This document shows positions 7,391-24,887 of a stretch of 64,000 nucleotides of DNA, in pieces. A model generated the notes under the pieces. The model was not told where the DNA came from, did not search any database, and saw only the letters and a program-made list of their open reading frames with translations. How positions within the stretch are numbered: position 1 is the first letter of the stretch; every line of letters starts with the position of its first letter. The stretch spans positions 119,962 to 183,961 of the forward strand of contig CAZOOF010000001.1 in assembly GCA_964581365.1 (NCBI GenBank). The letters run 5' to 3'. This stretch comes from an uncultured Chromatiales bacterium. GTDB lineage: Bacteria > Pseudomonadota > Gammaproteobacteria > SZUA-140. The position numbers were made by a program, and so were the translations under genes.

Positions 7391-8464
7391 TCAGGCCGGC
7401 AGCAGACCGCCAATATCGAAAGTGATGGGTTCCAGCTCCGCCAACGGCCAGCGGGCCCGCACATCGAACCCTGGACCTGCACGCGAACCGGCGGCAAAAC
7501 GCAGACACCCGGTCAGCGCTATCATCGCCCCGTTATCCGTGCAGTACTCCAGGCGCGGATAGTAGAGTTCTGCCCTTTCCCCATCGGCCATCGCCTGCAG
7601 GCGCTCACGCAAAGCGCGGTTCGCGCCCACACCGCCTGCGATCACCAACCGCGTCAGGCCAGTCTGCCGCAAGGCCCGGCGGCATTTGATGGCCAGGGTA
7701 TCAGTCACTGCATCCTGGAAAGCGAGTGCCACGTCCGCCCGATCCGTCATGGAGTCATTGGCCACATGTGCCCGGATGCAGGTGGCTGCGTGTGTCTTCA
7801 GGCCACTGAAACTGAACTCCAGCCCTGGGCGGTCCACCATCGGCCGCGGAAACTCGAACCGCCCGCTGCGGCCCTGGGCGGCGAGCCTCTCCAGCGCCGG
7901 CCCGCCGGGATAGGGCAGACCCAGCAGGCTGGCCGTCTTGTCGAAGGCCTCACCGACCGCATCATCGAGAGTCTCACCGAGCACCCGATAATCCCCCGGG
8001 CGCTCCACGGCGACCAGCATGGTATGCCCCCCCGAGACCAGCAGAGCCAGAAACGGAAACGAGGGGCGTCGCGCTTCCAGCAAAGGGGCCATCAGGTGCG
8101 CTTCCATGTGATGAACTGGAACCGCCGGCAGACCCCATGCCCAGGCCAGCGAGCGCCCCAGAGCGGCCCCCACCAGCAGCGCGCCCGCCAGGCCCGGACC
8201 CGCGGTATAAGCCACACCGTCGAGTCCACGGCCCACCGCGCACCCGCCGTCGCCGCACTCCAGCCCAGCCTCCCTCACGACTCCAGCCAGCAACGGCAGC
8301 AGCTTGCGCACATGGTCACGGGAGGCGAGTTCGGGCACCACGCCTCCATACTCGGCATGCAGCTCGATCTGGCTGTAAATGCGATGGGCGACTACGCCCC
8401 GGCCGGCTTCATAGACAGCCACGGACGTTTCATCGCAGGAGGTTTCGATGCCGAGGATTTTCAT
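7391..8464 (-). CDS. tsaD: tRNA N6-adenosine threonylcarbamoyltransferase TsaD
   Basis: [42 protein letters not shown]. Confidence 0.97.
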
Positions 8465-8717
8465 CGGAAAGCGGCCATCCGGCCGATCAGCAGCAATGAC
8501 GGGATTTCATAAAGTTACTGCCGGAGAAAACGATATTAAGTTACAATCAGGCATCCCGGCCGGACTTGCCCGCAAGGCTGCGGGACCCACGGACGATTGT
8601 ACCCCCGGCCAAGGCGGCAACGAAAGCAAATACGAACGTTGCCCGGGGTTCGACACGATGCCTGAATCCTTCCACCGGCTGCAAAAGGGCCCATCTCCAC
8701 GGGGGGCGAGATCGCCA

Positions 8718-10451
8718 ATGCCTGAAAAGTTCGCTATTCAAGTCAACGGCCTGACCAAAATCTATCCGCCGGATCTGCGCGCGGTGGATGGTCTGGACCT
8801 GGAAGTCAAAAACGGCGAGATCATGGCGCTGCTGGGACCCAACGGGGCCGGCAAGTCGACCACGATCCGCGTCCTGTCCACCCTCAGCGGCTTTGATTCC
8901 GGACGCGCCCTCGTCGGCGGGATCGACGTCGACACCGATCCCGAGGGGGTCCGGCGCACCATCGGCGTAGTGGCGCAGAAAACCGGTGTGGACTATTTCC
9001 TCACCGGGCGCGAGAACATGACCCTGCAGGGCCAGATGTATCGGATGAAGAAGGCCGACATCCGCGCCCGCATCGAGGAACTCGCCAAGTATTTCGAACT
9101 CGAGCAGAGCCTCGACAAGACCGTGGCCTCCTACTCGGGAGGCATGGCGCGCAAGCTCGACATCGCCAGCGCGCTGATTCATCGCCCCCGCATCCTGTAT
9201 CTGGATGAGCCAACGCTCGGGCTGGACATCCGCAGCCGCAAGATCCTGTGGCGCCACATCGAGGAACTCAACCGCAATTTCGGCCTCACCATTCTGCTGA
9301 CCACGCATTACCTGGAAGAAGCCGACAAGCTCGCTCATCGCGTAGCCATCATCAATGCCGGCAAGATCCGCATCATCGGCACGCCGGACGAGCTGAAGAA
9401 CGGCATCCACGGTGATTCGGTCGTGCTCACCTTCGAGACGGCAGGCACCGCCGAGCGCGCCTACGCCGAGCGACTGCAGCAGACGGGTCTGTCGCGTGAC
9501 GCGGTATGGGAAGGAAACAACCTCCATCTGTACGTGGACAACGGCGCTGCCAGCATCCCGCAGATCATTGAACTCGCCGGCCCGGCCAATGTTCACGTCA
9601 AGAGCCTGTCCTACGCCCGCCCCACGCTTGATGACGTCTTCCTCAAGTACACCGGTGCCAGCATGCAGGAAACCAAGGAAGAAGAAGGCGAGCAATGGTG
9701 GACGCAGTGGGCAGGCAAGGGCGGCGGCCGCGGCGACTGGAAGAAGATGGCCGCGAAATGGGGCTATGTGGAGTCCGAGGACGGCGAAGGCGAATGGCAG
9801 GGCAATGAGTGGGTGGATAAAGACGGCAACCCTCGCGCACCAGCCGGCACCCCGGGCGATTCGGCGCAATCATCTGCCAGCGCACCCGCATCATCGCCAG
9901 AGATGAACGAGGACGCCGGGACTGCCTGGCAGGGCAACGAATGGGTCGACGCCGAAGGCCGGCCGCGCGATGCACAGGCCGCTGGCGCATGGAAGGGCAA
10001 TCAGTGGGTCGACGAACACGGTAAACCGCGCAAGCCGGACGAACCGTCCGCATCCGTAGCAGCGAGCGGCGGAGCTAGCGCCTCCGGCGATCAGCAGCCG
10101 GAATGGCAGGGTAATCGCTGGGTAGACAAACAAGGTCACCAGATCGGCGACTGGGGCAACGCGCCCGACTGGAAGGGCAATGATTGGGTGGACGAAGACG
10201 GCAAGCCGCGCAGCGACTGGAACACATCTGCCGATTCCGCCCCTGCGGCCCCTTCCCCGGCCGATTCTTCGGACTCTGCCAGCGCGCAAAGCGGTGAAGG
10301 CCGCAGCGAATGGCAAGGCAATCGCTGGGTAGACGCCGAAGGTCACCAGGTCGGCGACTGGGGGAATGCGCCCGACTGGAAAGGCAACGAGTGGGTGGAC
10401 GAAGAAGGCAAGCCGCGCGGCGACTGGAGCCGCAAGAACGAGCGATCCTGA
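8718..10451 (+). CDS. ABC exporter ATP-binding subunit (DrrA-like) with a long Trp-repeat C-terminal tail
   Basis: Walker A GPNGAGKST, signature YSGGM, Walker B LYLDEPT, H-loop TTHY, PTLDDVFL end of the DrrA fold, then ~260 extra residues. ATG 8718 preferred over 8448. Confidence 0.9.
   Translation: MPEKFAIQVNGLTKIYPPDLRAVDGLDLEVKNGEIMALLGPNGAGKSTTIRVLSTLSGFDSGRALVGGIDVDTDPEGVRRTIGVVAQKTGVDYFLTGRENMTLQGQMYRMKKADIRARIEELAKYFELEQSLDKTVASYSGGMARKLDIASALIHRPRILYLDEPTLGLDIRSRKILWRHIEELNRNFGLTILLTTHYLEEADKLAHRVAIINAGKIRIIGTPDELKNGIHGDSVVLTFETAGTAERAYAERLQQTGLSRDAVWEGNNLHLYVDNGAASIPQIIELAGPANVHVKSLSYARPTLDDVFLKYTGASMQETKEEEGEQWWTQWAGKGGGRGDWKKMAAKWGYVESEDGEGEWQGNEWVDKDGNPRAPAGTPGDSAQSSASAPASSPEMNEDAGTAWQGNEWVDAEGRPRDAQAAGAWKGNQWVDEHGKPRKPDEPSASVAASGGASASGDQQPEWQGNRWVDKQGHQIGDWGNAPDWKGNDWVDEDGKPRSDWNTSADSAPAAPSPADSSDSASAQSGEGRSEWQGNRWVDAEGHQVGDWGNAPDWKGNEWVDEEGKPRGDWSRKNERS
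9795..10428 (+). repeat. Seven in-frame W[QK]GNxWVDxxG peptide repeats with a higher-order duplication (~10101-10220 vs ~10308-10428)
   Basis: WQGNEWVDKDG, WQGNEWVDAEG, WKGNQWVDEHG, WQGNRWVDKQG, WKGNDWVDEDG, WQGNRWVDAEG, WKGNEWVDEEG, separated by S/A/P-rich linkers. Confidence 0.95.
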
Positions 10452-10493: not shown

Positions 10494-11243
10494 ATGATTG
10501 CGGATACCCTGCATCTGTTCAATAAGTACATGATCATCACGCTGCGGATGCCGCTGTGGAGTCTCTTCACGCTCATCCAGCCGCTGATCTGGCTGCTGAT
10601 ATTCGGGCAACTCTTCGGTCGCTTCGTGCAGGCCGAGAACTACATGGACTTCATGGTGCCCGGCATTCTCATCATGACGGTGCTGTTCGGCTCCTCGTGG
10701 TCTGGCGTGAGTCTGCTGCGGGAAATTTCCGCAGGCACGGTTGACCGGATGCTGGTATCGCCGGTATCGCGCGTGGCGATCGTCCTCAGCCGCGTACTCC
10801 ACTCCGCGGTACAGGTGCTCGCCCAGGCGCTGGTCATCCTGGTGGTCGCCTGGCTGATCATGGATTCCAGCATTACCAAGAACATCGCCTACCTCGCCCT
10901 CGGCATGCTGGTCGTATTCCTGCTTGGTGTCGGGTTCGCCGCTATTTCCAACGGCTTCGCCATCACGCTGCAGCGCGAGGAACCGCTGGTGATGATCGGC
11001 AATCTCATGACCCTGCCGCTGATGTTCTTCTCTTCGGCGCTGGTGCCAAAGCAGTTCATGCCGACCTGGATCGAGTACGTATCCCTGATCAACCCCATCA
11101 CTTACGCGGTGGAATCGGTCCGCGCGGTGCTGGTGGGTCCTCCCGACTTCGGACTCTATTTCAAGGGACTGGCGGTGATGCTGGTGTTCGCGGGCGTCAC
11201 GCTCGCCTGGGCCGTAACGGCATTCAACGCTCTGAGAGACTGA
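10494..11243 (+). CDS. ABC-2 type exporter permease (DrrB-like)
   Basis: About 6 TM segments; QPLIWLLIFG, FMVPG, FFSSALVP, NPITYAVE. Confidence 0.9.
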   Translation: MIADTLHLFNKYMIITLRMPLWSLFTLIQPLIWLLIFGQLFGRFVQAENYMDFMVPGILIMTVLFGSSWSGVSLLREISAGTVDRMLVSPVSRVAIVLSRVLHSAVQVLAQALVILVVAWLIMDSSITKNIAYLALGMLVVFLLGVGFAAISNGFAITLQREEPLVMIGNLMTLPLMFFSSALVPKQFMPTWIEYVSLINPITYAVESVRAVLVGPPDFGLYFKGLAVMLVFAGVTLAWAVTAFNALRD

Positions 11244-11353: not shown

Positions 11354-13879
11354 CTAGAAGTTGAGGGTCAGCCCCGTGGTCACCATCAGTCGACGGTAAT
11401 CACTCAGCGAAGAACTCTGCAGACCTTCGATGATGTCCTCGGCGCCGAGAATGAATCCTACCGGCAGATTGGAGCTGTTGAGCGTGTAGGAAGCCGTGGC
11501 GAACAAGCCGACGTTCTCGCGGAAACGCCAGCGCACACCGGTAGCCAGACTGTGACGCGTGTTACGCCGGTGTCTGGTGAACTGAGAAAATGAATCCGGA
11601 TTGATGTAGTCGAGCAGGCTCAGGCCGTAATTGGCGTTGAACGCGCCCCACGCAGTACGGTAATCCATCCCCAACGACAGACTGTGCATGGTATAGGCAT
11701 AGTCGTTGCCGATCGGCAGTTTGTTATCGTTGATCACATACTGGTACCCCATGCGCAGCTGACTGGCAGGGGTCAGCGCTTGGGCGACAGCAAGCCCGGC
11801 AGCCGCAGTGCGCGCGCTGAAAAACGGACTGCTCTCACCGTCGTAATCACTCAAGGAAAGCGTCGCTGTAATGCTGCTCGGCATCCAGTCGCCCCGGAAC
11901 GGGTGCAGCACTGACGGCAGTGTCATGCGGGTGAACCCTTCGGCGAACAGGGTGTTCATACGGCCGACGCGGCTCTCGGTCAGTAAGCCTTCGCTGCTGC
12001 GGTGAGTAAATCCGCCGAGCAGATTGAAGCGGCCTCGTGTCAGACCGGCCGACAGGGTTGCTGTTGTGTGAAGATAGTCGAACTGTCCCCGGTGGTAAGT
12101 CGAGTAGGTCGGCGCGAACAGCAGACGCCAGCGGATCCCGCCTTCCGTCTTGTACTGGTAGGCCAGGTTCAGCGACAGATCGGAACGAAGGTCCTCGACC
12201 CGGCGCTGATCGCCGAGATTGATGTTGTCGTCCCATGCCATGAGATAGCTGGCATTGACTGACAGACCACGCATCCGGCGACGCGCGCTATCCATCGCGC
12301 GCCGCGCCATCTCGGCAACGTGGGGCGGGGGGTTGGCCTGGAGGATCTTGGCATATTCCGAAATCGCGTCCTCTTCGCGATTCAGCCGCTCGTAGCTCGC
12401 CGCCAGATTGAGCCGCGCGCCAACATGAGTCGGGACGATGCGGATCACTTCCTGGTAGGCATCGACGGCACGCAGGATCTGCTCTTCCTGCGCGTAGATC
12501 AAACCGAGATAGAAGTGCGCCAGCTCATTGTCGGGGTCGGCAGCGAGTATCTCCTCGAACTGCTGACCAGCTTCGCGGAATCGCCCTTCGACGTACATCT
12601 GCTTGGCCACCACCAGCTGCAGATTGCCAAGCGCGCGCTCGCGGGTCGGCGCGTCAGCGTCCAGTTCGAGCACGGCGCCATACTCGGCGGTCGCCTCGGC
12701 GAAACGGCCCAGATTGTCGTATATGGAGGCCAGGGCAAAGCGAATGCGCCAGTCGTCCGGATCGATTCTTCTGATCTCCTCGAACGACTCCGCGGCGGCC
12801 GCCTCATCCCCATGCTGCAGGTGCAGGAGACCCAGCTCGCGCCATGCTTCGGGATCGTCCGGCGTATCGCGCACACGTTCCTGCTGACGCTCTATACGGG
12901 CCCGCAGCCGCTCTTCAGCGACCTTCCTGCCGGCCTCGGTAGAGCCGAGGCGCCGCAGGATGCTCTGCAGACGGGCGGCGAGCGCCTCCCCGGGACGCAG
13001 GAGAGCAACCGCTTCTACCTGCTCATAGGCATCGTGCAGACTGCCCTGCTCGAGCGCCAGTTCCGCCAGCCGGAGACGCGAAGCTGCGTCGTCGGGATAG
13101 GCTTCGACGATACGGCGATATGTTCCGAGTTCGGCCTCGACATCCGCCATGACACGATACACGGCCGCAACCCCGATGAGGGCATCCCGATCATTCGGCT
13201 CGAGGTCCAGCGCCCGCTGGTAGGTTGCCAGCGCTTCGTGCAGATTACCCTGCTCCCTGAGCAGACGTGCCTCGATCACCAGCAGACGCACCTGCGCCCG
13301 TCTGCCCGCCGCGCTCTCGGGGGCAAGTTCCACCGCCTGTGCCAGGCGTTCGACAGCGCGCCCGAACTCCCCCCGCATCTCATGGACACTGGCCAGATTG
13401 ATGTAGGCGTTGATGTAGTCGGGGTCGATCCCGATCACCCGCTCGAATGCCGCCAGCGCCTCGTCCGATTCACCCCGGAGCATCTGCGCCACGCCCACGC
13501 TGTAGATGATCAAGGCATTGTCGGGATATTCGCGCGCCAGCTGGGTGAAGATCTCCAGAGCCTGATCCAGCTCCTGCCGTTCCGCATGACGCGTGGCGAT
13601 CAGATACCGCATGCTGCGGCTGGCCTCCCGGCCGACGGCACTATCCTCGCCGGCGATATCAATCGCGATGCGATACTGGGCAATCGCATCATCTGTCCTG
13701 CCGGCAGCAGAGTATGCTTCGGCAAGCCGGAGGCGAAGGTTCGCATCCTCGCGATTCGCATCGATCGCCTGCTCGAGCATGATCGTCCGATCATCCGCGG
13801 CAGCCCAGGGCGAGAATGCCGGCGTCGCCACCAGGAGCGATGCCGCGGTCATCAACAGGATGCGGTGCAGTTGCGCCAT
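11354..13879 (-). CDS. TPR-repeat protein with C-terminal outer-membrane beta-barrel (Slam/DUF560-like)
   Basis: Signal peptide; ~500 aa of TPRs (e.g. AHFYLGLIYAQ...AVDAYQEVIRIVP); last ~305 aa beta-rich, starting AWDDNIN and ending GLTLNF. Confidence 0.78.
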   Translation of the reverse strand: MAQLHRILLMTAASLLVATPAFSPWAAADDRTIMLEQAIDANREDANLRLRLAEAYSAAGRTDDAIAQYRIAIDIAGEDSAVGREASRSMRYLIATRHAERQELDQALEIFTQLAREYPDNALIIYSVGVAQMLRGESDEALAAFERVIGIDPDYINAYINLASVHEMRGEFGRAVERLAQAVELAPESAAGRRAQVRLLVIEARLLREQGNLHEALATYQRALDLEPNDRDALIGVAAVYRVMADVEAELGTYRRIVEAYPDDAASRLRLAELALEQGSLHDAYEQVEAVALLRPGEALAARLQSILRRLGSTEAGRKVAEERLRARIERQQERVRDTPDDPEAWRELGLLHLQHGDEAAAAESFEEIRRIDPDDWRIRFALASIYDNLGRFAEATAEYGAVLELDADAPTRERALGNLQLVVAKQMYVEGRFREAGQQFEEILAADPDNELAHFYLGLIYAQEEQILRAVDAYQEVIRIVPTHVGARLNLAASYERLNREEDAISEYAKILQANPPPHVAEMARRAMDSARRRMRGLSVNASYLMAWDDNINLGDQRRVEDLRSDLSLNLAYQYKTEGGIRWRLLFAPTYSTYHRGQFDYLHTTATLSAGLTRGRFNLLGGFTHRSSEGLLTESRVGRMNTLFAEGFTRMTLPSVLHPFRGDWMPSSITATLSLSDYDGESSPFFSARTAAAGLAVAQALTPASQLRMGYQYVINDNKLPIGNDYAYTMHSLSLGMDYRTAWGAFNANYGLSLLDYINPDSFSQFTRHRRNTRHSLATGVRWRFRENVGLFATASYTLNSSNLPVGFILGAEDIIEGLQSSSLSDYRRLMVTTGLTLNF

Positions 13880-13880
13880 C

Positions 13881-14822
13881 TCAGAAGTACATGTTCACGC
13901 GAATGGCCATGCGCCAGCCGTCGAAGCCGAGCTCCATCGGACGGTAGGTCACGTCACTGTACGAACGCACCTCCGCAAGGTACGTCAGGCGCTGCTCGGC
14001 ATTGAGCTGCGCTGGCGTCCGGAAATTCAGATTGTCCTCGGCCTGAATGTCGGTGCTCAGGCTGGCATTGCCGAGTTCGAATCGGCGCAGGCTGAGCGTG
14101 TAACCGAGATCAGCGCCTATCGACAACCAGTCGAGGAAAAAGTACTCGCCGCCAAGCCCGAGCTGAGCCATGAGCAACCCTGTAGCCTGCGACTCCATGA
14201 CGATGATGCGCTTGAAGGTCTCGGTACCGGTATCGAATCCAAAGACGAGATCTTCCTTGTAATCGATATCGAAGATCTCGTGCAGGGCCAGGCGGCCGTG
14301 CAGCCGGAACTTCTTGGCTTCCGACAGCAGGGTCCGCTGCCAGCCGAGGAAGTACTGAAAATACGAGATCCGCCCGGAGCGCTCGTATCCGACCGGCGTC
14401 ATCACTCCCTGGAAGGGCATCTCGGTACGAACCGAAGATGTCGAACCGCCCTCCCAGACACTGGCGCCGAAAAACAGAGTGTTCCGCTCGTCGAGCCTGA
14501 GGCCGATCTCGAGCCCGCCTTCGGTCCCGCTCCTCATCTCCGGCAGCGGATTGTCGACCACGAAATCGAAGTCCTGACCGGCATCGGCCTGATCGAAGAT
14601 CAGTCGACCGCGCCCCGGCAGCGGCGCCCTGAACTCTCCCTTGTTGAGAGCGGTGAGCCGCGGACTGTGCACGCCGAGTACCGGTGATACGCTCCAGAGC
14701 CGATCATCCGCGCTGACCGTGCCCCCGGCGGCGGACATCAGCAGAAATACAGAGCATCCCACCGCCACACCACGGCGGGCTCCCCGTTGTTCTTCACCCC
14801 GTCGCGGGTGATCGGCTGTCAT
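13881..14822 (-). CDS. Hypothetical outer-membrane beta-barrel protein
   Basis: Signal-peptide-like N-terminus, amphipathic strands (QLGLGGEYF, LSIGADLGY), terminal Phe (RVNMYF); 1 bp from the next gene. Confidence 0.7.
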   Translation of the reverse strand: MTADHPRRGEEQRGARRGVAVGCSVFLLMSAAGGTVSADDRLWSVSPVLGVHSPRLTALNKGEFRAPLPGRGRLIFDQADAGQDFDFVVDNPLPEMRSGTEGGLEIGLRLDERNTLFFGASVWEGGSTSSVRTEMPFQGVMTPVGYERSGRISYFQYFLGWQRTLLSEAKKFRLHGRLALHEIFDIDYKEDLVFGFDTGTETFKRIIVMESQATGLLMAQLGLGGEYFFLDWLSIGADLGYTLSLRRFELGNASLSTDIQAEDNLNFRTPAQLNAEQRLTYLAEVRSYSDVTYRPMELGFDGWRMAIRVNMYF

Positions 14823-14833: not shown

Positions 14834-16381
14834 TCAGAAGGTATAGCGGAATTCCGCAAAGACGCGATCATTGCCGCTGAAATTGCCGAAAAACTGTGCG
14901 CTCTGCTCGATCGTATTGCCCCCCGTGATCGGCGAGGTTCCGCCACCGATACCCAGCTGCGAGGCCTCGCCGAAGAACAGATCGAAGCCGGCAGCGATCT
15001 GAAAATGATCGGTTACATTCATGATGAGCTTGGGCTTGAGGTAAAGCTCTTCCATGTTGATCAGAGCAATGGCCAAGAGCTGGAGCACCATCGATTGCTG
15101 CGGCATCGGCTTGCGCAGGAACAGGGTGAGGGAAGTATCCAGCCGGTCCTGAATCATGCGCTCGTCATGCCCGAGGATTACCCACTGCGTTATCGCCGGC
15201 GCGAAATCGATACCCCAGCGCTGGAACTCGTACCCGATGCCCCAGCGGACATGACGCCGCTGCAGCACGCCCTGGCTGTCGAGGAAACCGTCGCCATCGA
15301 TGTCGCTGTCATTGCGCAGTCCGAAGTACTTGTCGGGCACATAGGCCGCCTCGAGTTTCAGCACCCCTTCACCAAGCGGTCGCACCGCCGTGGCTCCGTA
15401 GATGTTGATCCGGGTATAGGCGGGAAAGAACGTCGGTTCGAGCGCCGTTTCGATCATCGCCGAGCGGAACAGTACCGGGAAGTCGTCCCAGGTATAAAAC
15501 CAGCTGAAGGACACATCCGTTTCCAGCAGACGCGTCGAATACCGCAGCCCGATCTCCGAATTGCGGAAATTGCGGCCCGGATAGCGTGTCACCTCATTGC
15601 CGTCAGGATCGGTGATGCGCTGCAGCAGCTCCCACTCCGAACCTGGCGGCGCCGGTTCATGAAAGCGCAGATCCGGTATCCACAGGAACTGCAGATCGCT
15701 GCCATTGTCAGTGTACCAGTCGAGCTTGACGGTCCATAAGGGGATCCGGTAATCGAGCAGATCCGGGAGGATCAGCTCGCGGAAATCCATCGGATTGATC
15801 TCGTCGGTAATGCGAACGCCTTCAAGCACGCCCCAGACGACGAACTGCCTGCCGACGCGCAGATCGAAGCGATCAAAGTACATATCGAGATACAGCTCAC
15901 GGACCGCCATTACCGGCGAATCCTTTTCCTCGGCGAGGTTGTCGATGAATACCAGAGGCTGATCGGAATCACGCGCGAAGCGCGCGCTGATCGTCCGGTA
16001 GTCGAACAGTTCGTAGGCGAGATCGTGATAAGCCCAGGCGGAGAACCCGAGCCGCATCCCTGGCGTGAACCCCCAGGTTCCGTCCACGTTGATGATGTTG
16101 CGAATCTTGGTGATGGAACGCGGTTCGCTGAAACGGAACGCGGTCTCGTTCTTGAGGTAGCCGCCGATATCCAGCCCTTCGAGCCAGGAAAAGCGCGACT
16201 TCTCTGCCGCCGCTATCTCGGCAGAGAAGTCCGGACTATCGGAAGGAATCGTCGCGCGACCATCGGCAGCGATGGCCGGAGTCAGGAAAGCGGGGGCAAT
16301 GGCCGTCAGTGCAAGGGCAGAAAATGAAAGCGGTCGAATCGCCGCGGAACGTATCAGACGGGCTCCTTGCATTTCGCGCAC
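14834..16381 (-). CDS. Outer-membrane porin-like protein (DUF1302-like)
   Basis: Signal peptide; RELYLD...DLRVGRQFVVWG...D.INP.D pattern; ends VFAEFRYTF. Confidence 0.75.
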   Translation of the reverse strand: MREMQGARLIRSAAIRPLSFSALALTAIAPAFLTPAIAADGRATIPSDSPDFSAEIAAAEKSRFSWLEGLDIGGYLKNETAFRFSEPRSITKIRNIINVDGTWGFTPGMRLGFSAWAYHDLAYELFDYRTISARFARDSDQPLVFIDNLAEEKDSPVMAVRELYLDMYFDRFDLRVGRQFVVWGVLEGVRITDEINPMDFRELILPDLLDYRIPLWTVKLDWYTDNGSDLQFLWIPDLRFHEPAPPGSEWELLQRITDPDGNEVTRYPGRNFRNSEIGLRYSTRLLETDVSFSWFYTWDDFPVLFRSAMIETALEPTFFPAYTRINIYGATAVRPLGEGVLKLEAAYVPDKYFGLRNDSDIDGDGFLDSQGVLQRRHVRWGIGYEFQRWGIDFAPAITQWVILGHDERMIQDRLDTSLTLFLRKPMPQQSMVLQLLAIALINMEELYLKPKLIMNVTDHFQIAAGFDLFFGEASQLGIGGGTSPITGGNTIEQSAQFFGNFSGNDRVFAEFRYTF

Positions 16382-16779
16382 AGGATAACATGATCCTCTC
16401 CCGGTGCAGCGATTCCCAAGGTAGCAACCGCGCCCGCCGCCATACCATTCCCGCAGGACACACAGGTCATGTCGCGATTGAGCACGATCCGCTCCCAGGC
16501 AAGCACGCTGGAGAAGGCATCAGCCGACTTCCGCCCTGCGTCCGCGACCTGCCCGGATGAGCTGCGCGGCGCCTCATTCATGAACGCCTGCTCCAGCACG
16601 TTGCGGATCAGAATCGATACGGGGATACCGAGCTCATCGGCCCGGGCGATGACCTTGGCACGCAACTCGCGCGAGACCCGGGCTCCCAGGTAATCTTCCT
16701 TGCGCTTCATTGCTTCCCTGCGCGCCTTTTCACCCACCGATCTGGCCTGCTCCCGCATGCGCTTGGCGAAATCCTGCAT
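16354..16779 (-). CDS. Small ribbon-helix-helix (CopG-like) protein with C-terminal CxxC...CxxC zinc finger
   Basis: YLGARVSRELRAKVIARADELGIPVSILIRNVL (beta-alpha-alpha pattern); CVSC and CAKC; GGAGG before ATG 16779 (ATG 16710 is an alternative). Confidence 0.7.
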   Translation of the reverse strand: MQDFAKRMREQARSVGEKARREAMKRKEDYLGARVSRELRAKVIARADELGIPVSILIRNVLEQAFMNEAPRSSSGQVADAGRKSADAFSSVLAWERIVLNRDMTCVSCGNGMAAGAVATLGIAAPGEDHVILCAKCKEPV

Positions 16780-16802
16780 CTTTGCCTCCACTGTGCAGCA
16801 AT

Positions 16803-16851
16803 GTTTGTCAACGTATAACATGACAAACGAATGTTGTACAGATTGTACAGA
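16803..16851. promoter_or_regulatory. Candidate operator: GTTTGTCA-N10-TGACAAAC inverted repeat plus tandem TTGTACAGA x2
   Basis: Exact repeats in an AT-rich intergenic stretch just upstream of the RHH gene. Confidence 0.6.
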
Positions 16852-16875: not shown

Positions 16876-17721
16876 TCAGCGCTCGGACTGATAGCGCTGG
16901 ATGATGTCGGGACCGCGCTCCAGTGAACGGGCGCTGAAGAGCCCATCTTCCAGTCCGACATTGACGCGCATGTCACGCAGCTCGAATGAGGATGCCGTTC
17001 CGGATTGATGATTCCGTACCATGGAGGTCTTCCACATCCAGGCTCCATCCACCTGCTGCCAGGCGATGAACTGATCCTTCAGCAGCTGGCCGTTACCGTC
17101 GTAGTAATCGATCCGAACTGGCACACAGCCCTCCCAGTTTCCCGGATACAGGAACCAGAAGACCCGCTTGCTGTACAGGGGACGGCTCTCCCGCGGCACG
17201 CTTTCGACCACATGGACAGTCTGTCCGTCGGCGACGGTGGTTCCCCGGTAGCGATGCTCGTCCGCCTCCAGGGCGCGCGGACTCACATCGAAATAGGTGA
17301 GGTTGGAGTTGAGGAAGCTGTCTCCGGGATCCCGGATCGTGACCCGTCGGATTTTCTTGAGCAGTGGCAGATAGATCCACTGATCGACGGGGCGTCCGCT
17401 CTCGGGGGTATAGGCGACGCGCATGAATGAGGAGCCGCGCGCATCGGGAGGGAAGGTGGTGAACAGCAGCATCTTGTCCGCGACGCCGTCCTCGCCACGG
17501 TAGTCCTTCCAGAAACGGAGGTATTCGCTGCGCTTGCTGCGGCCGTCACGATCCATGAGCGTGACGGTAAAGATACCTTGCTGGTCAGCGCCCTGATACT
17601 TGACACCGCACTGGCGCATCAGCTCATCGCCGCTCAGGGATGGAAGCGGCGCTTCAGCGGCTGAAGCGGAGCTGCCTGCCCAGATCGCCAGGACACCGAT
17701 GGCGAAGGATGCCAGCCGCAA
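16876..17721 (-). CDS. Periplasmic LolA-like (outer-membrane lipoprotein-sorting family) protein
   Basis: Signal peptide; F..P.D.RG..F, DQWIYLP.LKKIRR, SFLNSNLTYFD, RIDYYD..G.LLK, NVGLEDGLFS. Start uncertain (TTG). Confidence 0.82.
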   Translation of the reverse strand: MRLASFAIGVLAIWAGSSASAAEAPLPSLSGDELMRQCGVKYQGADQQGIFTVTLMDRDGRSKRSEYLRFWKDYRGEDGVADKMLLFTTFPPDARGSSFMRVAYTPESGRPVDQWIYLPLLKKIRRVTIRDPGDSFLNSNLTYFDVSPRALEADEHRYRGTTVADGQTVHVVESVPRESRPLYSKRVFWFLYPGNWEGCVPVRIDYYDGNGQLLKDQFIAWQQVDGAWMWKTSMVRNHQSGTASSFELRDMRVNVGLEDGLFSARSLERGPDIIQRYQSER

Positions 17722-17843: not shown

Positions 17844-18809
17844 TCAAGGCACAGGCAGGGCCGGCGTGGGAGCCGTCGGTCCGAAAGTCGCGTGCCAGTC
17901 GAAAGGAGGCTCGTAGCCAGCACCGTCCGGCTCTATGCCGGTGCTGCTGGTGGAAAACGTGGTTGCCTCAGTGTCCGTCGTGTTATTGACGATTCCCTGA
18001 AAACCGAACTGCGACAGACCTTCACTGCCCAGATCCAGCCGCTGGCCCAGCCAGCGCACCATGACGTCGTCTCCCGCCGCCCAGGTCACCGCTGCCGGAT
18101 CCGGGCCGGTGGTCGCTCCCCCGAAGGAGGGCCCTAGATCGATGCTGCCGGCGCTGGTGAATGCACCCTGACGCCCTTCGAGGACGAAACGCTGCACATC
18201 CGTGGAGGCGGTAATCCCGTCGCCGAGGCCGACACGCTGATCGACCGTGATGGAGCGATCCGGCCCACCTGAACCGTCGATGAGCTCCATGACGAAGGTA
18301 TTACTGAACTCATCGCCCGTCGCCGCACCGCCCGGCGAAACGAAGGCTTGGGATATGGTCATCGTCGGATTGTTGCCGTCCGGAGTGGGATTTGCCCATC
18401 CGATGGCGAGCTCGCTGCTGTTGGTGAAGGTTCCCTCGGCATCCGTGGTCGCGTGCCGCTGCTGGGCAAGGATGCCGTTGCTCGCTCCGAGCTGTACGAA
18501 GCTCTCGTCTACATAGGCGAGATCGTCCGGGTCCCCGTTCGCATTGGTGTCGGTGACAATGGTCTGGATATAGGTCGCCCCATTGATGCTGTCGATCCAC
18601 TGCACCTGAATGAAGCCGTCACCGCTCGACAGAACGCTGCAGGTGAATCCCGCCGCGCACGGCGTATCTCCGCCGCCGGCTGCGCCGATCGTGCCGTTGG
18701 AGACACTCCAGTTGTCGAAAATGGGGCTGGCGGCATGAGCGGACAGCGGAAGCACCGCTGCGCATGCCAGCAGCGTTCCAGCGCTCAGCGAACGTACCTC
18801 TTTGATCAT
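17844..18809 (-). CDS. Secreted hypothetical protein (acidic, G/T/S/D-rich)
   Basis: Sec signal ending AHA; GGGAGAG upstream; one Cys pair in the mature chain; no recognised family. Confidence 0.8.
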   Translation of the reverse strand: MIKEVRSLSAGTLLACAAVLPLSAHAASPIFDNWSVSNGTIGAAGGGDTPCAAGFTCSVLSSGDGFIQVQWIDSINGATYIQTIVTDTNANGDPDDLAYVDESFVQLGASNGILAQQRHATTDAEGTFTNSSELAIGWANPTPDGNNPTMTISQAFVSPGGAATGDEFSNTFVMELIDGSGGPDRSITVDQRVGLGDGITASTDVQRFVLEGRQGAFTSAGSIDLGPSFGGATTGPDPAAVTWAAGDDVMVRWLGQRLDLGSEGLSQFGFQGIVNNTTDTEATTFSTSSTGIEPDGAGYEPPFDWHATFGPTAPTPALPVP

Positions 18810-18990: not shown

Positions 18991-19635
18991 TCAGGAATGA
19001 CTGCCCCGGCCGCGCTCCCGCAGGTACAGATTCATGTAAATCAGGTTGTTTTGCTTACGCCCGTAGTCGATCCGACTGAGCGAGCCGTAGTCGACAGTGA
19101 GGCGCCGGTAGGCATCCAGCGGCATCGACAGCGCATCGGCCAGACACATTCTTATCGGCCCGACATGCGCCACCACCACCACCAGCTGACCGGGATGTTC
19201 GGCGATGACCTCGCGCACCGCTCCGGTGACCCGCTCCAGGTGGGCGCTTATCGGCTCCCCGCCCTCAGGCACGTAGTGGACCGGATCCCGCTTCCAGGCC
19301 TGAAATTCTTCCGGATAGTCCCTGGCGATATCGTCGAAGTAGAGTCCGTCCCATATCCCGAAGGGCCGCTCGCGCAATCCCGGATGCAGATGCAGGGAAG
19401 CACCGGTCGCTTCAACGATCGGTGCGGCGGTGCTGCGCGTGCGCTGCATCGGACTGGCGTAGACCGCAGCCACCGGTTGGCCGCGGAGCAGTTCCGCTGC
19501 GTGAGCTGCCTGCTCCACCCCTTCGGAAGTAAGCGCCGGATCCTCGCGATCGTCACAGTAAAGGCGATCGTGCGGAAAATCCGCTCTGCCGTGGCGCACG
19601 AAAATTACGCCGGTTGCCCGTTCCTTCTCTCTCAT
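18991..19635 (-). CDS. Histidine phosphatase family protein (CobC/PspA-like)
   Basis: FVRHG, YASPMQR...TA, LRERPFGIWDG, GGE, VVAH. Confidence 0.9.
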   Translation of the reverse strand: MREKERATGVIFVRHGRADFPHDRLYCDDREDPALTSEGVEQAAHAAELLRGQPVAAVYASPMQRTRSTAAPIVEATGASLHLHPGLRERPFGIWDGLYFDDIARDYPEEFQAWKRDPVHYVPEGGEPISAHLERVTGAVREVIAEHPGQLVVVVAHVGPIRMCLADALSMPLDAYRRLTVDYGSLSRIDYGRKQNNLIYMNLYLRERGRGSHS

Positions 19636-19653
19636 TGTAGCGCCCGAAAGGCC

Positions 19654-20118
19654 TCAGGTGAGGGGGCGGCTGTGAGTATGCGAGGGGCCATCGTGCGAAT
19701 GGGCAACCTCACTCACATCGACCGGCACCATATTGAGCTTGCCATGCCGCACACCCCGCTCCGCCATCACCGCATTGGCGAACCGCCGCACCTTGCTCAC
19801 CGGGCCGCGCATGAGCGCGATTTCCAGGCAGTTGTCGTGGTCCAGATGCACGTGCATGCTCGACAGGTTGAGCTCGTGATGATCATGGTGCACGCGGGTA
19901 ATCCTGCTCGCCAGCTCGAGTTCGTGATGGTTGTACACATAGCTGAGCGTGGCCACACAGTGACCGTCATCGGACTTCTCGAGGCGATCCTTCTCGAGCT
20001 GCTGCCGGATGAGATCACGCATCGCTTCCGAACGGTTGGTATAGCCCTTTTCCGCGATGAAGGCATCGAACAAACCGGCGAGGGTCGAGTCGAGCGACAT
20101 CGTTATACGTTCCATCAT
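19654..20118 (-). CDS. nikR: Nickel-responsive transcriptional regulator
   Basis: MERITMSLD, GYTNRSEAMRDLIR, YVYNHH, SMHVHLDHDNCLE, GVRHGKL; His-rich tail. Confidence 0.95.
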   Translation of the reverse strand: MMERITMSLDSTLAGLFDAFIAEKGYTNRSEAMRDLIRQQLEKDRLEKSDDGHCVATLSYVYNHHELELASRITRVHHDHHELNLSSMHVHLDHDNCLEIALMRGPVSKVRRFANAVMAERGVRHGKLNMVPVDVSEVAHSHDGPSHTHSRPLT

Positions 20119-20261
20119 GGTGTTCCCTGGTTCGTCTTGCCTGAGTTAGGAAAACTGCCGGCGACGAAACCCCGTCGCCGGCGCCTCAGAGGATTTTCTG
20201 TGCTGGCGTCATAATACCTGAAAGGGTGAGCCGCTGTCCCGGCTGTGCCGCCGTGCTATGC

Positions 20262-20518: not shown

Positions 20519-20817
20519 TGGACGACCGCGCGCACCATGACGGCCGGCTGTGCCTGGATGCCTCGGCACGCGCCGAGGCGATCCGGCGCCTGCGTTCGAT
20601 CCGTGGCCACGTCGAAGGCATCCTGCGCATGCTCGAGGATGATTCGGTCTACTGCGTGGACGTGCTCCGGCAGATCAAGGCAGTGGACGGCGCCATGAAG
20701 AAGGTGGGCAATATCGTGCTGCGCAGCCATCTGCACGATCATGTGGTCACGGCGGCCGGCCGCGGAGACACCGGCGAGATCATCGATGAGCTCATGGAAA
20801 TCCTCAAATACCGCTGA
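20518..20817 (+). CDS. csoR: CsoR/RcnR family metal-sensitive repressor
   Basis: [34 protein letters not shown]; overlaps the copZ stop codon. Confidence 0.85.
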
Positions 20818-23050: not shown

Positions 23051-23074
23051 TCACCGCTCCGTTCGCCTCCCGGT

Positions 23075-24031
23075 CTAGTCGCGCTTCGGTTTCTCGCGCT
23101 GCACGCGGACTTCCTTGAAATGCTGGTCGTCCACTTCTTCGTGCAGATGATCGTGATCGACGTCGTGCGAATGGATGTGGAAATGATGGCCGTTTTCCGG
23201 TCCATGGGCATGGCGATGCGCATGCAGAAAATTGCGGATGATGACGCGCTCGCCTTCCTCCATGTCCTGGGCTGACAGGATGTCATGCAGCAGTTCATGG
23301 GTCATCAGGGCGAGGGGCAGCTCGAGCTTGTTGGCCTCGAGCAGCTCGCGATCGTAAAGAATGTCGCCGGCGGCGCCATCGGCTTCGATGCGACCATCGA
23401 CCAGCAGCAGGCAGCGATCGCAGACCTCGAGCGCGATGTCCAGATCGTGGGTGCACAGCAGGATGGTGCGATCGGTATCGCGGAGCCAGTTGATGAGATT
23501 GCGCCGGTTGAGCGGATCCATATTGGTCGATGGCTCGTCGAACACCAGGATCTCCGGCTGGTAGGACAGGACCGTCGCCAGGGCCAGCCGCTTGCGCTCG
23601 CCGAACGAAAGGTGGAAAGAAGAACGTTCCTCGAAGCCCTGCAGGCCGACCACCTCCAGCGCCTCGCGCACCCGGGATTCGATCTGCTCGCGCGGCAGGC
23701 CGAGATTCAGCGGGCCGAAGGCCACGTCGTCGAACACGGTGGGGCAGAACAGCTGGTCATCGGGGTCCTGGAACACGATTCCGACCTTGCGGCGAACCTG
23801 CTTCAGGGTCTCCTTGCGAACCTCTACGCCGTCGATAACCACGCGCCCGGAAACCGGCAGCTGCACCCCGTTCAAGTGGCTCATGAACGTGGACTTGCCC
23901 GCCCCATTGGGCCCGATGAGAGCCACTTTCTCGCCTTCGTGAATGCGGCAACTCAGCCCCTTCAGCACCTGATGACCGTCAGGATAGTTGAAGTGGACAT
24001 TGTCGACTTCGATGATTACTCGCCGGGACAT
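23075..24031 (-). CDS. ECF transporter ATPase (NikO/CbiO) with His-rich C-terminal extension
   Basis: GPNGAGKST, VFQDPDDQLF, LSFGE, FDEP, THD; tail HAHRHAH...HHFHIHSHDVDHDHLH. Confidence 0.9.
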   Translation of the reverse strand: MSRRVIIEVDNVHFNYPDGHQVLKGLSCRIHEGEKVALIGPNGAGKSTFMSHLNGVQLPVSGRVVIDGVEVRKETLKQVRRKVGIVFQDPDDQLFCPTVFDDVAFGPLNLGLPREQIESRVREALEVVGLQGFEERSSFHLSFGERKRLALATVLSYQPEILVFDEPSTNMDPLNRRNLINWLRDTDRTILLCTHDLDIALEVCDRCLLLVDGRIEADGAAGDILYDRELLEANKLELPLALMTHELLHDILSAQDMEEGERVIIRNFLHAHRHAHGPENGHHFHIHSHDVDHDHLHEEVDDQHFKEVRVQREKPKRD

Positions 24032-24872: not shown

Positions 24873-24887
24873 TTCGATCTCTGGCCG

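What the first reader, a model, noticed from the sequence alone, without database searches (positions are those of the whole stretch)
9660..10451. ABC ATPase with a 260-aa tail of seven W[QK]GNxWVDxxG repeats
Seen: after the normal DrrA end (PTLDDVFLKYTG) come a Trp-rich segment (QWWTQWAGKGGGRGDWKKMAAKWG) and seven near-identical 11-14 aa repeats joined by low-complexity S/A/P/D linkers. Repeats 4+5 are duplicated as 6+7 with a shared GDWGNAPD spacer. The copies differ at synonymous sites while keeping W, G, N, W, V, D, G, which suggests selection on the peptide. Known: DrrA-type ATPases are about 310-330 aa without such tails. Inference: Trp-zipper beta-hairpin modules on the cytoplasmic face that multivalently bind cargo or a partner (e.g. 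the kelch propeller), or bind cations through DxxG turns. I do not recognise the motif.
Basis: partly seen in the sequence, partly recalled or inferred. Interest (0 to 1): 0.8.

Follow-up and report, generated by a model that had tools for sequence, protein, structure and literature searches.

The report
Tryptophan-repeat tail on an ABC ATPase
The motor protein of an ABC transporter in an uncultured bacterium carries a conserved, undescribed tail of tryptophan-rich mini-hairpin repeats, and the same repeat occurs across the membrane in the partner pump of the same envelope transport system, which hints at a new way of catching greasy cargo.

Summary
The gene at 8718..10451 (+) encodes a DrrA/ABCA-like ABC-2 ATPase of 577 aa. 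Its last 265 aa hold seven W[QK]GNxWVDxxG motifs, the only seven in all six frames of the window.

The true unit is a 22-residue repeat with three Trp, mostly in pairs spaced exactly 22 aa and joined by disordered linkers. It is under purifying selection and is not an assembly artefact.

No Pfam, NCBIfam, PHROGs or PDB family matches it. A profile of the unit finds only 22 proteins among 1.84 billion.

Two things are new. First, all 131 members of this ATPase subfamily have a Trp-studded acidic tail (median 9.9% W) behind a conserved WWxQWAGKGG junction. The hairpin repeat is one lineage's version, and other lineages expanded other Trp motifs.

Second, the transporter belongs to a conserved DUF1302 / LolA-like / MMPL(RND) / TPR-barrel cluster. 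That cluster's MMPL carries a Trp-studded insert in its periplasmic loop, and in one marine clade the insert is 5-15 copies of the same WxGNxWV repeat.

Best reading (inferred, about 0.4): a flexible multivalent Trp array that captures the system's hydrophobic or amphiphilic cargo on the entry side of each pump. The kelch partner is not supported. I rate it a new variant of a known kind, interest 0.68.

The parts
8718..10451 (+). ABC-2 type ATPase gene, 577 aa (NBD + DrrA C-terminal domain + Trp-repeat tail)
8718..9653 (+). Nucleotide-binding domain and DrrA1-3_C domain (aa 1-312). The closest solved relatives are ABCA4/3/1/7 lipid exporters.
9669..9767 (+). Acidic stretch plus conserved Trp/Lys junction EQWWTQWAGKGGGRGDWKKMAAKWGY (aa 318-350). 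The motif WWx[QK]WAGK is present in 129 of 131 subfamily members.
   Evidence: AlphaFold short helices 327-332 and 341-347 at low confidence
9795..9860 (+). Repeat 1 (single WQGNEWVDKDGNPR unit)
9927..10034 (+). Repeat pair 2+3 (spacing 21 aa)
10101..10226 (+). Repeat pair 4+5 (spacing 22 aa, GDWGNAPD between the two halves)
10308..10433 (+). Repeat pair 6+7, a recent duplicate of 4+5
10494..11243 (+). ABC-2 permease (DrrB-like), same operon
11354..13879 (-). TPR protein with C-terminal outer-membrane-barrel-like end (TPR_OM), convergent with the ABC operon. It is conserved next to the ABC operon in other families.
13881..14822 (-). 313-aa protein of no family in this window, with an aromatic C-terminal end; its L030 homologue gives a sub-threshold OMP_b-brl match.
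14834..16381 (-). DUF1302 outer-membrane protein
   Evidence: 41 bits, cut-off 23.2
16354..16821 (-). 155-aa protein with no Pfam or NCBIfam match, conserved in the cluster. By eye it looks like a ribbon-helix-helix segment plus Cys pairs.
16876..17721 (-). LolA_like / DUF1329 periplasmic carrier-like protein

Best explanation
The tail is one lineage's structured version of a family-wide module. A distinct subfamily of DrrA/ABCA-like ABC-2 ATPases ends in a short Trp/Lys junction (WWxQWAGKGG..W.KKW) followed by 65-264 aa of acidic, almost aliphatic-free sequence studded with about 10% tryptophan. In the window's clade that sequence has become 22-residue Trp mini-hairpins (WQGNEWVDxxGxxxGDWGxxPD). 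Most are in pairs at a fixed 22-aa register and strung on disordered linkers.

The transporter is the cytoplasm-facing pump of a conserved envelope system made of an RHH-like protein, a DUF1302 barrel, an MMPL/HAE3-type RND pump, a small barrel, a TPR-barrel and a LolA-like carrier. The MMPL of that system carries the same kind of Trp-studded insert in its TM1-TM2 periplasmic loop, and in one clade it carries the same WxGNxWV repeat.

Inferred mechanism: each hairpin pair offers a small aromatic platform or cage, and the flexible array works as a multivalent fishing line. It binds the system's hydrophobic or amphiphilic cargo (or its head group) on the entry side of the pump, cytoplasmic for the ABC and periplasmic for the MMPL, raises its local concentration and feeds it to the membrane domain.

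Shown: the anatomy, the selection, the distribution, the gene linkage and the shared repeat. Inferred: hairpin pairs as binding sites, cargo capture, and the nature of the cargo.
For: Selection and reality. In 37 double units from 16 genomes, W2 G4 N5 W7 V8 G12 W24 G26 N27 W29 V30 G34 are invariant, with synonymous codon variation, while the linkers are not conserved.

Rarity and fusion partners. All 57 hits to the tail are ABC_tran + DrrA_C proteins. A profile of the unit finds 22 proteins at E<=1e-3 among 1,835,955,588. The strong ones are ABC tails plus one MMPL pump.

Family-wide Trp tail. I analysed 131 proteins. WWx[QK]WAGK is in 129 of 131. Median W is 9.9% (range 6.0-12.8), acidic 22%, basic 11%, other hydrophobic 4%. 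Sixty-three have two or more hairpin motifs, 2 have one and 66 have none. Other lineages independently expanded other Trp motifs.

Same repeat in the partner pump. Eleven MMPL proteins carry 5-15 copies of [WF]xGNxWVxxDG at alternating 23/26 spacing between TM1 and TM2. By alignment of TM2-6 to AcrB and Dispatched the insert is extracytoplasmic.

Trp-studded MMPL loops. I found them in all 17 loci where my anchors located the loop (of 21 searched), at 3.8-9.5% W. Two paralogous MMPLs of a same-genus genome lack such an insert.

Linkage. The cluster lies next to the ABC operon in 12 of 15 MAG loci, 7 of 8 marine loci, in G002 and in 10 of 15 loci from 8 other families.

Cargo class. The NBD is closest to ABCA lipid exporters (E 4.7e-73 to 3.5e-64). 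Related DUF1302/DUF1329/RND systems export apolar monoterpenes and Nile Red (PMC6394551, passages read) and give phenotypes on Tween 20 and fatty esters (bioRxiv 2020.07.04.188060, passages).

Form. AlphaFold gives the same V7-to-residue-13 bridge in 7 of 7 repeats. The nearest solved look-alike by pattern is the WQGNY repeat of the CbpL choline-binding module, where ligand sites form between consecutive hairpins (E 0.39, not significant; PMC5137146 passages).
Against: No ligand, cargo or binding was tested, and every member comes from uncultured organisms. Half of the subfamily has no hairpins, so the function cannot depend on this fold, only on Trp in a polar context. AlphaFold confidence is middling (pLDDT 63-77 in the repeats, 71.4 for the isolated unit). 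No structural neighbour was found. The tail is net acidic, which argues against simple binding to anionic membranes or lipids. In the data seen, hairpin arrays sit on either the ABC or the MMPL and never on both (two clades only). A generic physical role such as clustering or spacing would fit that as well as cargo binding does. Four of 15 distant loci show no cluster genes beside the permease. In the window's own genus the MMPL has left the cluster.
Confidence: 0.4

Rival explanations
1. Sticker-and-spacer self-association. The Trp motifs are cohesive stickers in polar spacers. They make the transporters cluster, in cis or between complexes, and so concentrate the machinery at one envelope site. 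This would work equally well from the cytoplasmic ABC tail or from the periplasmic MMPL loop.
For: Composition of about 10% W with 4% other hydrophobic residues in G/Q/S/D/E-rich sequence. Different Trp motifs were expanded independently in different families. W-W spacing is non-random (spacing 8: 87 seen against 18 expected, sequences related, so not independent). Hairpin arrays are seen on the ABC or on the MMPL, not on both.
Against: The strict invariance of G, N, V and G in the hairpin and the fixed 22-aa register point to a folded binding unit more than to generic stickers. The strongly acidic net charge opposes self-association. It was not tested, because the planned three-copy fold never ran.
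Confidence: 0.2
2. Multivalent docking array for a protein partner. Trp-centred short motifs, as in GW/WG Argonaute hooks or W-acidic motifs (both recalled, not tested here), recruit a cytoplasmic enzyme or scaffold that makes or delivers the cargo. The first reader's kelch propeller is one candidate.
For: Repeated short Trp motifs in disordered acidic sequence are typical of linear-motif arrays (my knowledge). The kelch protein shows no obvious signal peptide by eye in L030, so it is not excluded by compartment.
Against: The kelch lies 19 kb away and pairs with ThiF in both clades, outside the conserved cluster. The motif changes completely between families while the NBD stays 57-70% identical, so any pocket-bearing partner would have to co-vary. 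The same repeat in a periplasmic loop cannot meet a cytoplasmic partner. I recognised no candidate cytoplasmic partner encoded in the cluster; the 155-aa RHH-like protein is probably cytoplasmic but looks like a regulator by eye.
Confidence: 0.15
3. Membrane-interface anchor or regulatory tether. The Trp/Lys junction lies on the bilayer surface, and the Trp-studded tail senses or adheres to the interface (lipid packing, head groups, divalent cations) to tune ATPase activity.
For: The junction WWxQWAGKGGGGxWKKW is the most conserved part (129 of 131) and is Trp plus Lys rich, as interfacial peptides are (my knowledge). AlphaFold puts short helices there. The MMPL insert lies just before TM2, close to the membrane.
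Against: The distal tail is strongly acidic (22% D+E against 11% K+R) and up to 264 aa long with disordered linkers. That is more than an anchor needs and is unfavourable on an anionic membrane.
Confidence: 0.15
4. Neutral low-complexity expansion or assembly artefact with no function.
For: Copy number changes fast: 7 repeats here and about 9 in L001 at 96% NBD identity. One low-depth contig skips 346 nt of the tail. One fragment from another assembly is frameshifted (P0061).
Against: Residues are invariant with synonymous codon variation across 16 genomes. The tail is present in all 131 subfamily members. Contigs identical to the window span the tail in two runs of two studies, both flagged as possible sources.
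Confidence: 0.05

Closest known systems
DrrA / ABCA-type ABC-2 ATPases (TIGR01188; solved ABCA4, ABCA3, ABCA1, ABCA7, Thermotoga 4YER)
   Same: The NBD plus C-terminal DrrA1-3_C domain score above the drrA cut-off. An ABC-2 permease lies directly downstream.
   Different: The drrA profile ends at residue 313 of 577. None of these families is described with a Trp-repeat tail (Pfam and NCBIfam give nothing for the tail).
Wzt, the O-antigen ABC-2 ATPase with a C-terminal carbohydrate-binding domain that recognises the cargo's cap (recalled from the literature, no paper read here)
   Same: The logic is the same: an extra module fused behind the NBD of an ABC-2 exporter selects or captures cargo on the cytoplasmic side.
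   Different: By recollection Wzt-C is one folded beta-sandwich. Here there is an array of 22-residue hairpins on disordered linkers. No sequence or fold match to any PDB chain was found.
Choline-binding (cell-wall-binding) repeats, especially the non-consensus WQGNY repeats of pneumococcal CbpL (PDB 4CNL; PMC5137146)
   Same: About 20-residue aromatic-rich beta-hairpin repeats. Long and short repeats alternate. Ligand sites form between two consecutive hairpins from three or four aromatic residues. The local pattern WQGN-aromatic-hydrophobic-x3-G-K...GEW is shared.
   Different: There is no significant similarity: E 0.39, Pfam PF01473 finds nothing in the genome at E<=10, and hhalign against Cpl-1 repeats gives probability 0.5%. 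CbpL is a surface protein of a Gram-positive organism; this tail is cytoplasmic in a Gram-negative one.
DUF1302 / DUF1329 / BNR propeller / HAE3-RND envelope systems (AmeABCD of Castellaniella defragrans, PMC6394551; cofit clusters in Shewanella, Kangiella and Pseudomonas, bioRxiv 072470)
   Same: A DUF1302 barrel, a LolA-like/DUF1329 protein and an MMPL/HAE3-type pump lie in one conserved cluster. Those systems handle hydrophobic or amphiphilic compounds.
   Different: This version adds an ABC-2 transporter, a TPR-barrel, a small barrel and an RHH-like protein. No BNR/COG4447 propeller was recognised. Trp-studded inserts are not mentioned in the passages I read.
BNR_4 beta-propeller blades (PF15892) carrying YYLxWNGSxWVDADG
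   Same: The local motif WxG[NS]xWVDxDG recurs as part of a blade. Eight of the 17 weak profile hits that I scanned are BNR_4 proteins.
   Different: Those repeats are 45-50 aa blades of a folded propeller. The tail units are 22 aa, give no BNR_4 match, and are separated by disordered linkers.

Membership tests
DrrA-type ABC-2 ATPase (TIGR01188 / PF00005 + PF13732) | Whole-protein score above the curated cut-off of the drrA subfamily model | tested here: met
   318.3 bits against 312.45; the match covers residues 19-313
DrrA-type ABC-2 ATPase (TIGR01188 / PF00005 + PF13732) | ABC_tran domain followed by the DrrA1-3 C-terminal domain | tested here: met
   PF00005 at 24-166 (99 bits) and PF13732 at 221-312 (34.3 bits, cut-off 27.4)
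DrrA-type ABC-2 ATPase (TIGR01188 / PF00005 + PF13732) | Adjacent ABC-2 type permease | tested here: met
   10494..11243 matches PF01061 at 108.4 bits. Its drrB (TIGR01247) score of 118.9 is below the cut-off of 223, so it is an ABC-2 permease but not a curated DrrB.
Choline-binding repeat (Pfam PF01473, Choline_bind_1) | Match to the family HMM | tested here: not met
   Not listed for the tail at E<=1. 0 matches in the whole genome at E<=10.
Choline-binding repeat (Pfam PF01473, Choline_bind_1) | Profile-profile similarity to canonical repeats (Cpl-1 lysin, three repeat pairs) | tested here: not met
   hhalign probability 0.5%, 4 aligned columns. The best PDB hit, CbpL, has E 0.39.
Choline-binding repeat (Pfam PF01473, Choline_bind_1) | About 20-residue beta-hairpin repeats that stack into a superhelix with aromatic ligand sites between neighbours | tested here: inconclusive
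   22-residue period, three Trp per unit, fixed pair register. AlphaFold shows one bridge per repeat at pLDDT 63-77. I could not inspect stacking between units.
Wzt-type cargo-binding extension of an ABC-2 NBD | Extra module fused C-terminal to the NBD of an ABC-2 exporter | tested here: met
   265 aa lie behind the DrrA_C domain
Wzt-type cargo-binding extension of an ABC-2 NBD | Similarity to a solved C-terminal cargo-binding domain (sequence or fold) | tested here: not met
   No significant PDB sequence hit for the unit profile. Foldseek gave 0 matches and VIA-align gave 0 with Z>=2. The unit is only 42 aa, so these are weak tests.
Wzt-type cargo-binding extension of an ABC-2 NBD | Binds the transported substrate | not testable with these tools
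   Needs binding assays
DUF1302 / DUF1329 / RND envelope system (AmeABCD-like) | DUF1302 outer-membrane protein and LolA-like/DUF1329 protein in one cluster | tested here: met
   PF06980 at 41 bits (cut-off 23.2); PF17131 at 127.2 bits and PF07044 at 42 bits
DUF1302 / DUF1329 / RND envelope system (AmeABCD-like) | HAE3/MMPL-type RND pump in the cluster | tested here: inconclusive
   It is absent from the cluster in the window and in 10 related loci but present on another contig of the same genome. It is in the cluster in G002, in 7 marine loci and in 10 of 15 loci of other families.
DUF1302 / DUF1329 / RND envelope system (AmeABCD-like) | BNR/COG4447 (Ycf48-like) beta-propeller | tested here: not met
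   No Pfam or NCBIfam match for the remaining cluster proteins. Their folds were not predicted.

The most novel reading that the evidence does not exclude
A system-wide 'tryptophan velcro'. This envelope export system marks both of its inner-membrane pumps, the ABC ATPase tail in the cytoplasm and the MMPL loop in the periplasm, with fast-evolving multivalent Trp modules that recognise the same cargo. The WxGNxWV mini-hairpin is a new, portable ligand-binding repeat that has been deployed on either side of the membrane. That would be a cargo-recognition principle not described for ABC or RND transporters.
Probability: 0.25. Interest if true: 0.8.

Novelty: new variant of a known kind. Interest (0 to 1): 0.68.

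Why it matters
DUF1302/DUF1329/RND clusters are widespread in Proteobacteria, give pleiotropic phenotypes, and have no known substrate or mechanism.

This finding adds an ABC-2 transporter to one branch of them. It also gives that branch a visible and easily mutated signature: Trp-studded modules on both pumps.

If the modules bind cargo, a purified tail could be used to fish for the unknown substrate. That would make the long-open question of what these systems move directly testable.

Independently of that, the 22-residue WxGNxWVDxxG unit is an undescribed natural Trp-rich mini-repeat. It may interest protein designers and people who study ligand-binding hairpin repeats.

Tried and rejected
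Family and fold searches on the tail gave nothing useful.
- Pfam and NCBIfam: only sub-threshold SSSPR-51 and FOLN noise.
- PHROGs: none.
- ESM Atlas: no usable hit.
- Foldseek against PDB: 0 matches. VIA-align wide: 0 with Z>=2 for the 42-aa model. The unit is too small for these tools to say much.

Choline-binding-repeat membership is rejected. My first alignment of overlapping Cpl-1 repeat pairs (A4) was slid out of register by the aligner. I replaced it with three non-overlapping pairs (A5).

The colicin Ia residues 27-41 (WGGNEWVDD) are a single sub-threshold hit (E 0.33). I treat it as a curiosity.

The kelch partner is rejected on gene context.

The assembly-artefact reading is rejected.

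Expression is unresolved. One 277-nt contig in an RNA library (X18, 9562-9838) matches exactly. The tool warns that DNA may be present in that library, so I do not claim transcription.

A three-copy fold of the double unit, meant to test self-association, never ran. The complex prediction queue was full at every try, so self-association is untested.

Control for paralogous MMPL loops: one of three fetched loci (L078) gave a wrong-frame ORF in my script and was dropped, leaving two valid controls.

In one search my anchors failed in 4 of 21 loci (L036, L069, L072, L074). Those are not counted.

Literature searches found no description of the tail.
- Motif strings WQGN, WGGNEW, GNEWVD, GNKWV: only the CbpL paper was relevant.
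- 'tryptophan-rich' with 'nucleotide-binding domain', 'C-terminal extension' and 'ABC-2': one unrelated review.

Earlier scan notes near this place and by sequence: none.
Full report
WHAT IS THERE

The ORF 8448..10451 on the + strand starts in reality at ATG 8718. That methionine is an invariant column in an alignment of 57 relatives. The product is 577 aa.

Residues 24-166 match ABC_tran and 221-312 match the DrrA1-3 C-terminal domain. The NCBIfam drrA subfamily model scores 318.3 bits against its cut-off of 312.45 and ends at residue 313. An ABC-2 permease follows at 10494..11243.

The remaining 265 aa (nt 9654-10451) match no Pfam, NCBIfam or PHROGs family. They consist of three parts: an acidic stretch, a Trp/Lys segment (EQWWTQWAGKGGGRGDWKKMAAKWGY), and seven W[QK]GNxWVDxxG motifs. 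Those seven are the only W.GN.W matches in all six frames of the window.

THE REAL UNIT

In this protein and its relatives the motifs come mostly in pairs whose first Trp residues are exactly 22 residues apart. In the window the spacings are 21 (repeats 2+3), 22 (4+5) and 22 (6+7).

An alignment of 37 such double units from the window and 15 other genomes gives the consensus xWQGNEWVDxxGxQxGDWGxxPDWQGNEWVDxxGKPKxDW. The invariant positions are W2 G4 N5 W7 V8 G12 W24 G26 N27 W29 V30 G34. The repeat is thus 22 residues with three Trp.

The linkers between pairs are variable S/A/P/D/E-rich sequence.

Selection acts on the peptide. In 35 units the invariant Asn is coded AAT 18 times and AAC 17 times, Val by four codons, and Gly by two or three. 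The recent duplicate 4+5 / 6+7 shows 88% mean identity over 156 aligned DNA columns, with several synonymous changes in conserved codons.

Copy number varies. It runs from 2 to 7 among the relatives. The closest relative, L001 (96% identical in the NBD part), shows four pairs; if it also has the leading single repeat, which I did not check, that makes nine repeats against seven here.

STRUCTURE PREDICTION

AlphaFold2 with the 57-row alignment models the NBD and DrrA_C domain well. It gives the repeats pLDDT 63-77 and the linkers below 50. In 7 of 7 repeats DSSP shows the same single bridge between Val7 and residue 13 of the unit: 366/372, 410/416, 431/437, 469/475, 491/497, 538/544 and 560/566.

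The isolated double unit folds at pLDDT 71.4. It has no structural neighbour by Foldseek or VIA-align. With only 42 residues that result says little.

ARTEFACT CHECK

The exact DNA of the tail is held by 17 runs at half or more of its sampled words, and the holders come from 10 studies. The run labels are manure, compost, activated sludge and biofilm metagenomes.

Contigs identical to the window span 8600-10553 in X12 and 9374-10553 in X13. Both runs are flagged as possible sources of this DNA, so they are not fully independent support.

A low-depth contig in X13 skips 9818-10165. I read it as a strain or relative with fewer repeats.

One RNA-library contig (X18) covers 9562-9838. That is not proof of transcription.

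HOW RARE IS THE REPEAT

A profile of the double unit, searched against 1,835,955,588 representative proteins, finds 22 at E<=1e-3. The strong hits are ABC tails and fragments of them, plus one 1087-aa protein, P0059.

The weak hits fall into three groups:
- blades of BNR_4 propellers (YYLxWNGSxWVDADG; 8 of 17 scanned);
- 23-25-aa DWLGNxYVxHxDxxG repeats in small proteins;
- a few unassigned proteins.

A search seeded on the tail alone returned 57 proteins, all of the ABC_tran + DrrA_C type, 406-577 aa long.

THE WIDER SUBFAMILY

A search seeded on the junction (aa 301-357) returned 127 proteins. Together with the first set I analysed 131.

- WWx[QK]WAGK is present in 129 of 131.
- Tails are 65-264 aa long (median 151).
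- Median composition is 9.9% Trp (range 6.0-12.8), 22% D+E, 11% K+R, and only 4% other hydrophobic residues.
- 63 have two or more hairpin motifs, 2 have one, and 66 have none.

The tails without hairpins carry other Trp motifs, often repeated:
- AQAWTKEEMxxWWKNxGQ;
- GGWGQWSAEExAxW;
- QGDWQKWQ;
- QW[TS]xEExxxW...KQW[ST]PEEMxxW, about seven copies in L068;
- DDWQNNEWNKxKDSPPxDWKKW, three copies in L077.

In these tails the W-W spacing is non-random: spacing 8 occurs 87 times against 18 expected from shuffles. The sequences are related, so this is descriptive only.

On a FastTree of the NBD part, the hairpin / no-hairpin label changes only twice, so the hairpin tail is essentially one clade.

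In the window's order, 20 of 36 genomes have the hairpin profile. The orthologues in the other genera (65-69% identical NBD) keep the junction and a Trp-studded tail of roughly 90-125 aa without hairpins.

In an even sample of the class, 20 of 400 genomes carry the junction, in nine families.

THE GENE NEIGHBOURHOOD

Convergent with the ABC operon lie, on the minus strand:
- a TPR protein whose C-terminal part looks like an outer-membrane barrel by eye (11354..13879);
- a 313-aa protein of no family, likewise read as a barrel by eye (13881..14822);
- a DUF1302 protein (14834..16381);
- a 155-aa protein that looks like a ribbon-helix-helix plus Cys pairs by eye (16354..16821);
- a LolA_like/DUF1329 protein (16876..17721);
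- a secreted 321-aa protein (17844..18809).

This arrangement recurs in 12 of 15 MAG loci. Two of the others end at a contig end, and one (L013) is rearranged but keeps the DUF1302 and LolA-like genes within about 2-5 kb upstream of the ABC gene.

P0059 and its ten relatives are MMPL/HAE3-like RND pumps (Pfam MMPL and sterol-sensing domain). They carry 5-15 copies of [WF]xGN[KQ]WVxxDG[ST]PK at alternating 23/26-residue spacing, inserted between TM1 and TM2. Their TM2-6 align to AcrB and Dispatched, which places the insert in the extracytoplasmic loop.

Loci fetched for this MMPL show it inside the same cluster: 155-aa protein, DUF1302, MMPL, 313-aa homologue, TPR-barrel, then convergent ABC-2 permease and ABC ATPase at 57-59% NBD identity. 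This holds in 7 of 8 loci; the eighth is a 3.4-kb fragment. The ABC tails I printed for four of these loci have the junction and Trp-studded acidic sequence but no hairpins.

In the window's own family, G002 has the full cluster with the MMPL between DUF1302 and the 313-aa gene. In the window and in the 10 hairpin-tail loci where both genes are visible, DUF1302 abuts the 313-aa gene, and the MMPL orthologue sits on another contig.

In 15 further genomes from eight other families, 10 show the full cluster beside the ABC operon, one ends at a contig end, and four show no cluster genes there.

The MMPL loop insert is Trp-studded in all 17 loci where my anchors found it, out of 21 searched: 61-466 aa long and 3.8-9.5% W. 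It is G/Q/S/D/E-rich by eye. An example is GGGAWSGQAGGGNWQQGKWPQGGGQGQWPQQDK. Two paralogous MMPL genes of a same-genus genome have no such insert.

WHAT IT PROBABLY DOES

Shown:
- the anatomy, the selection and the distribution;
- a Trp-studded module present on both inner-membrane pumps of one conserved envelope system;
- that module evolving fast and repeatedly by motif duplication;
- the same mini-hairpin on the cytoplasmic ABC tail in one clade and on the periplasmic MMPL loop in another.

Inferred: the property under selection is multivalent presentation of tryptophan in a flexible polar chain. The one thing that both compartments share is the transported molecule.

The NBD is closest to ABCA lipid exporters. 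Related DUF1302/DUF1329/RND systems export apolar monoterpenes and Nile Red (PMC6394551, passages), show phenotypes on Tween 20 and fatty esters (bioRxiv 2020.07.04.188060, passages), and were proposed to export an envelope component (bioRxiv 072470, passage).

I therefore favour cargo capture on the entry side of each pump, at about 0.4. The logic is that of the Wzt cargo-binding extension (recalled). The pairwise hairpin geometry resembles choline-binding repeats, where ligand sites form between neighbouring hairpins (PMC5137146, passages).

Rivals:
- self-association of stickers in spacers (0.2);
- a docking array for a protein partner (0.15);
- a membrane-interface anchor or regulator (0.15);
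- neutral expansion (0.05).

The kelch gene (29364..30302) pairs with ThiF here and in L030 and lies outside the cluster.

COMPARISON WITH KNOWN FAMILIES

The protein is a member of the DrrA-type ABC-2 ATPases.

The tail is not a member of the choline-binding repeat family. PF01473 finds nothing in the genome at E<=10. hhalign against Cpl-1 repeats gives probability 0.5%. The CbpL hit has E 0.39.

The cluster is a variant of the DUF1302/DUF1329/RND systems, without a recognised BNR propeller and with an added ABC-2 transporter.

I found no description of the tail, the junction or the MMPL insert in the two literature searches I ran. Supplements were not consulted.

LIMITS

All members come from uncultured organisms. 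No binding, localisation or expression was tested. AlphaFold confidence in the repeats is middling. The planned test of self-association never ran because the tool's queue was full.

Noticed in passing
P0059, P0084-P0093; loci L030, L031, L033 (about 10600-11700): A small family of MMPL/HAE3-like RND pumps (945-1180 aa; one partial of 864 aa) carries 5-15 copies of [WF]xGN[KQ]WVxxDG[ST]PK in the TM1-TM2 periplasmic loop. Spacing alternates 23/26, giving a 49-aa double unit.
   Followed up: yes
G000:C46 (L046, L049); window 14822-14834: In the window's genus the cluster's MMPL gene has left its usual place between DUF1302 and the 313-aa gene. It now sits on another contig, next to a TPR-barrel paralogue (35% identity).
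   Followed up: partly
window 16354..16821 (-): The 155-aa cluster protein has no family match. By eye it has a ribbon-helix-helix-like segment and C-terminal Cys pairs (CVSCG...CAKCK). It is conserved in the cluster across families (38-56% identity) and may be its regulator.
   Followed up: no
P0061; window about 10170-10200; X13 contig skipping 9818-10165: Another assembly holds a fragment identical to the window's tail that goes out of frame after DWK in repeat 5. A low-depth contig joins across 346 nt of the tail with 34 other letters between. The repeat region therefore varies between strains or is prone to local misassembly.
   Followed up: partly
P0066, P0071, P0072: Small proteins with hydrophobic segments carry 4-5 copies of a related 23-25-aa repeat, DWLGNxYVxHxDxxGxxxGxSExK. 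This may be a sister repeat family of unknown function.
   Followed up: no
PDB 1cii_A residues 27-41: Colicin Ia has a single WGGNEWVDD near its N-terminus. It is identical in form to the first motif of the MMPL inserts. The hit is sub-threshold (E 0.33) and may be chance.
   Followed up: no
window 18997..20214 (+): This 405-aa ORF is probably spurious. It overlaps, on the opposite strand, a histidine phosphatase gene (18991..19635) and a NikR-like gene (19654..20118) that both have strong Pfam matches.
   Followed up: partly
window 29364..31112 (+); L030 21225-22928 (-): A kelch-repeat protein with no evident signal peptide is paired with a ThiF-family gene in both the window and the distant marine locus.
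   Followed up: partly
L030 935-5942 (-): Upstream of the marine cluster lies an operon made of a family-2 glycosyltransferase (chitin-synthase-like), a HEAT-repeat protein, a TPR + YaiO barrel protein and a single-domain response regulator. It looks like a synthase-dependent exopolysaccharide module.
   Followed up: no
window 20741..28989: Beyond the NikR and histidine-phosphatase genes, downstream of the cluster, lie a heavy-metal P-type ATPase, CbiM/CbiQ with an ABC ATPase (cobalt/nickel ECF-type uptake), and the moaE and moaA molybdenum-cofactor genes. These look like ordinary housekeeping context.
   Followed up: no
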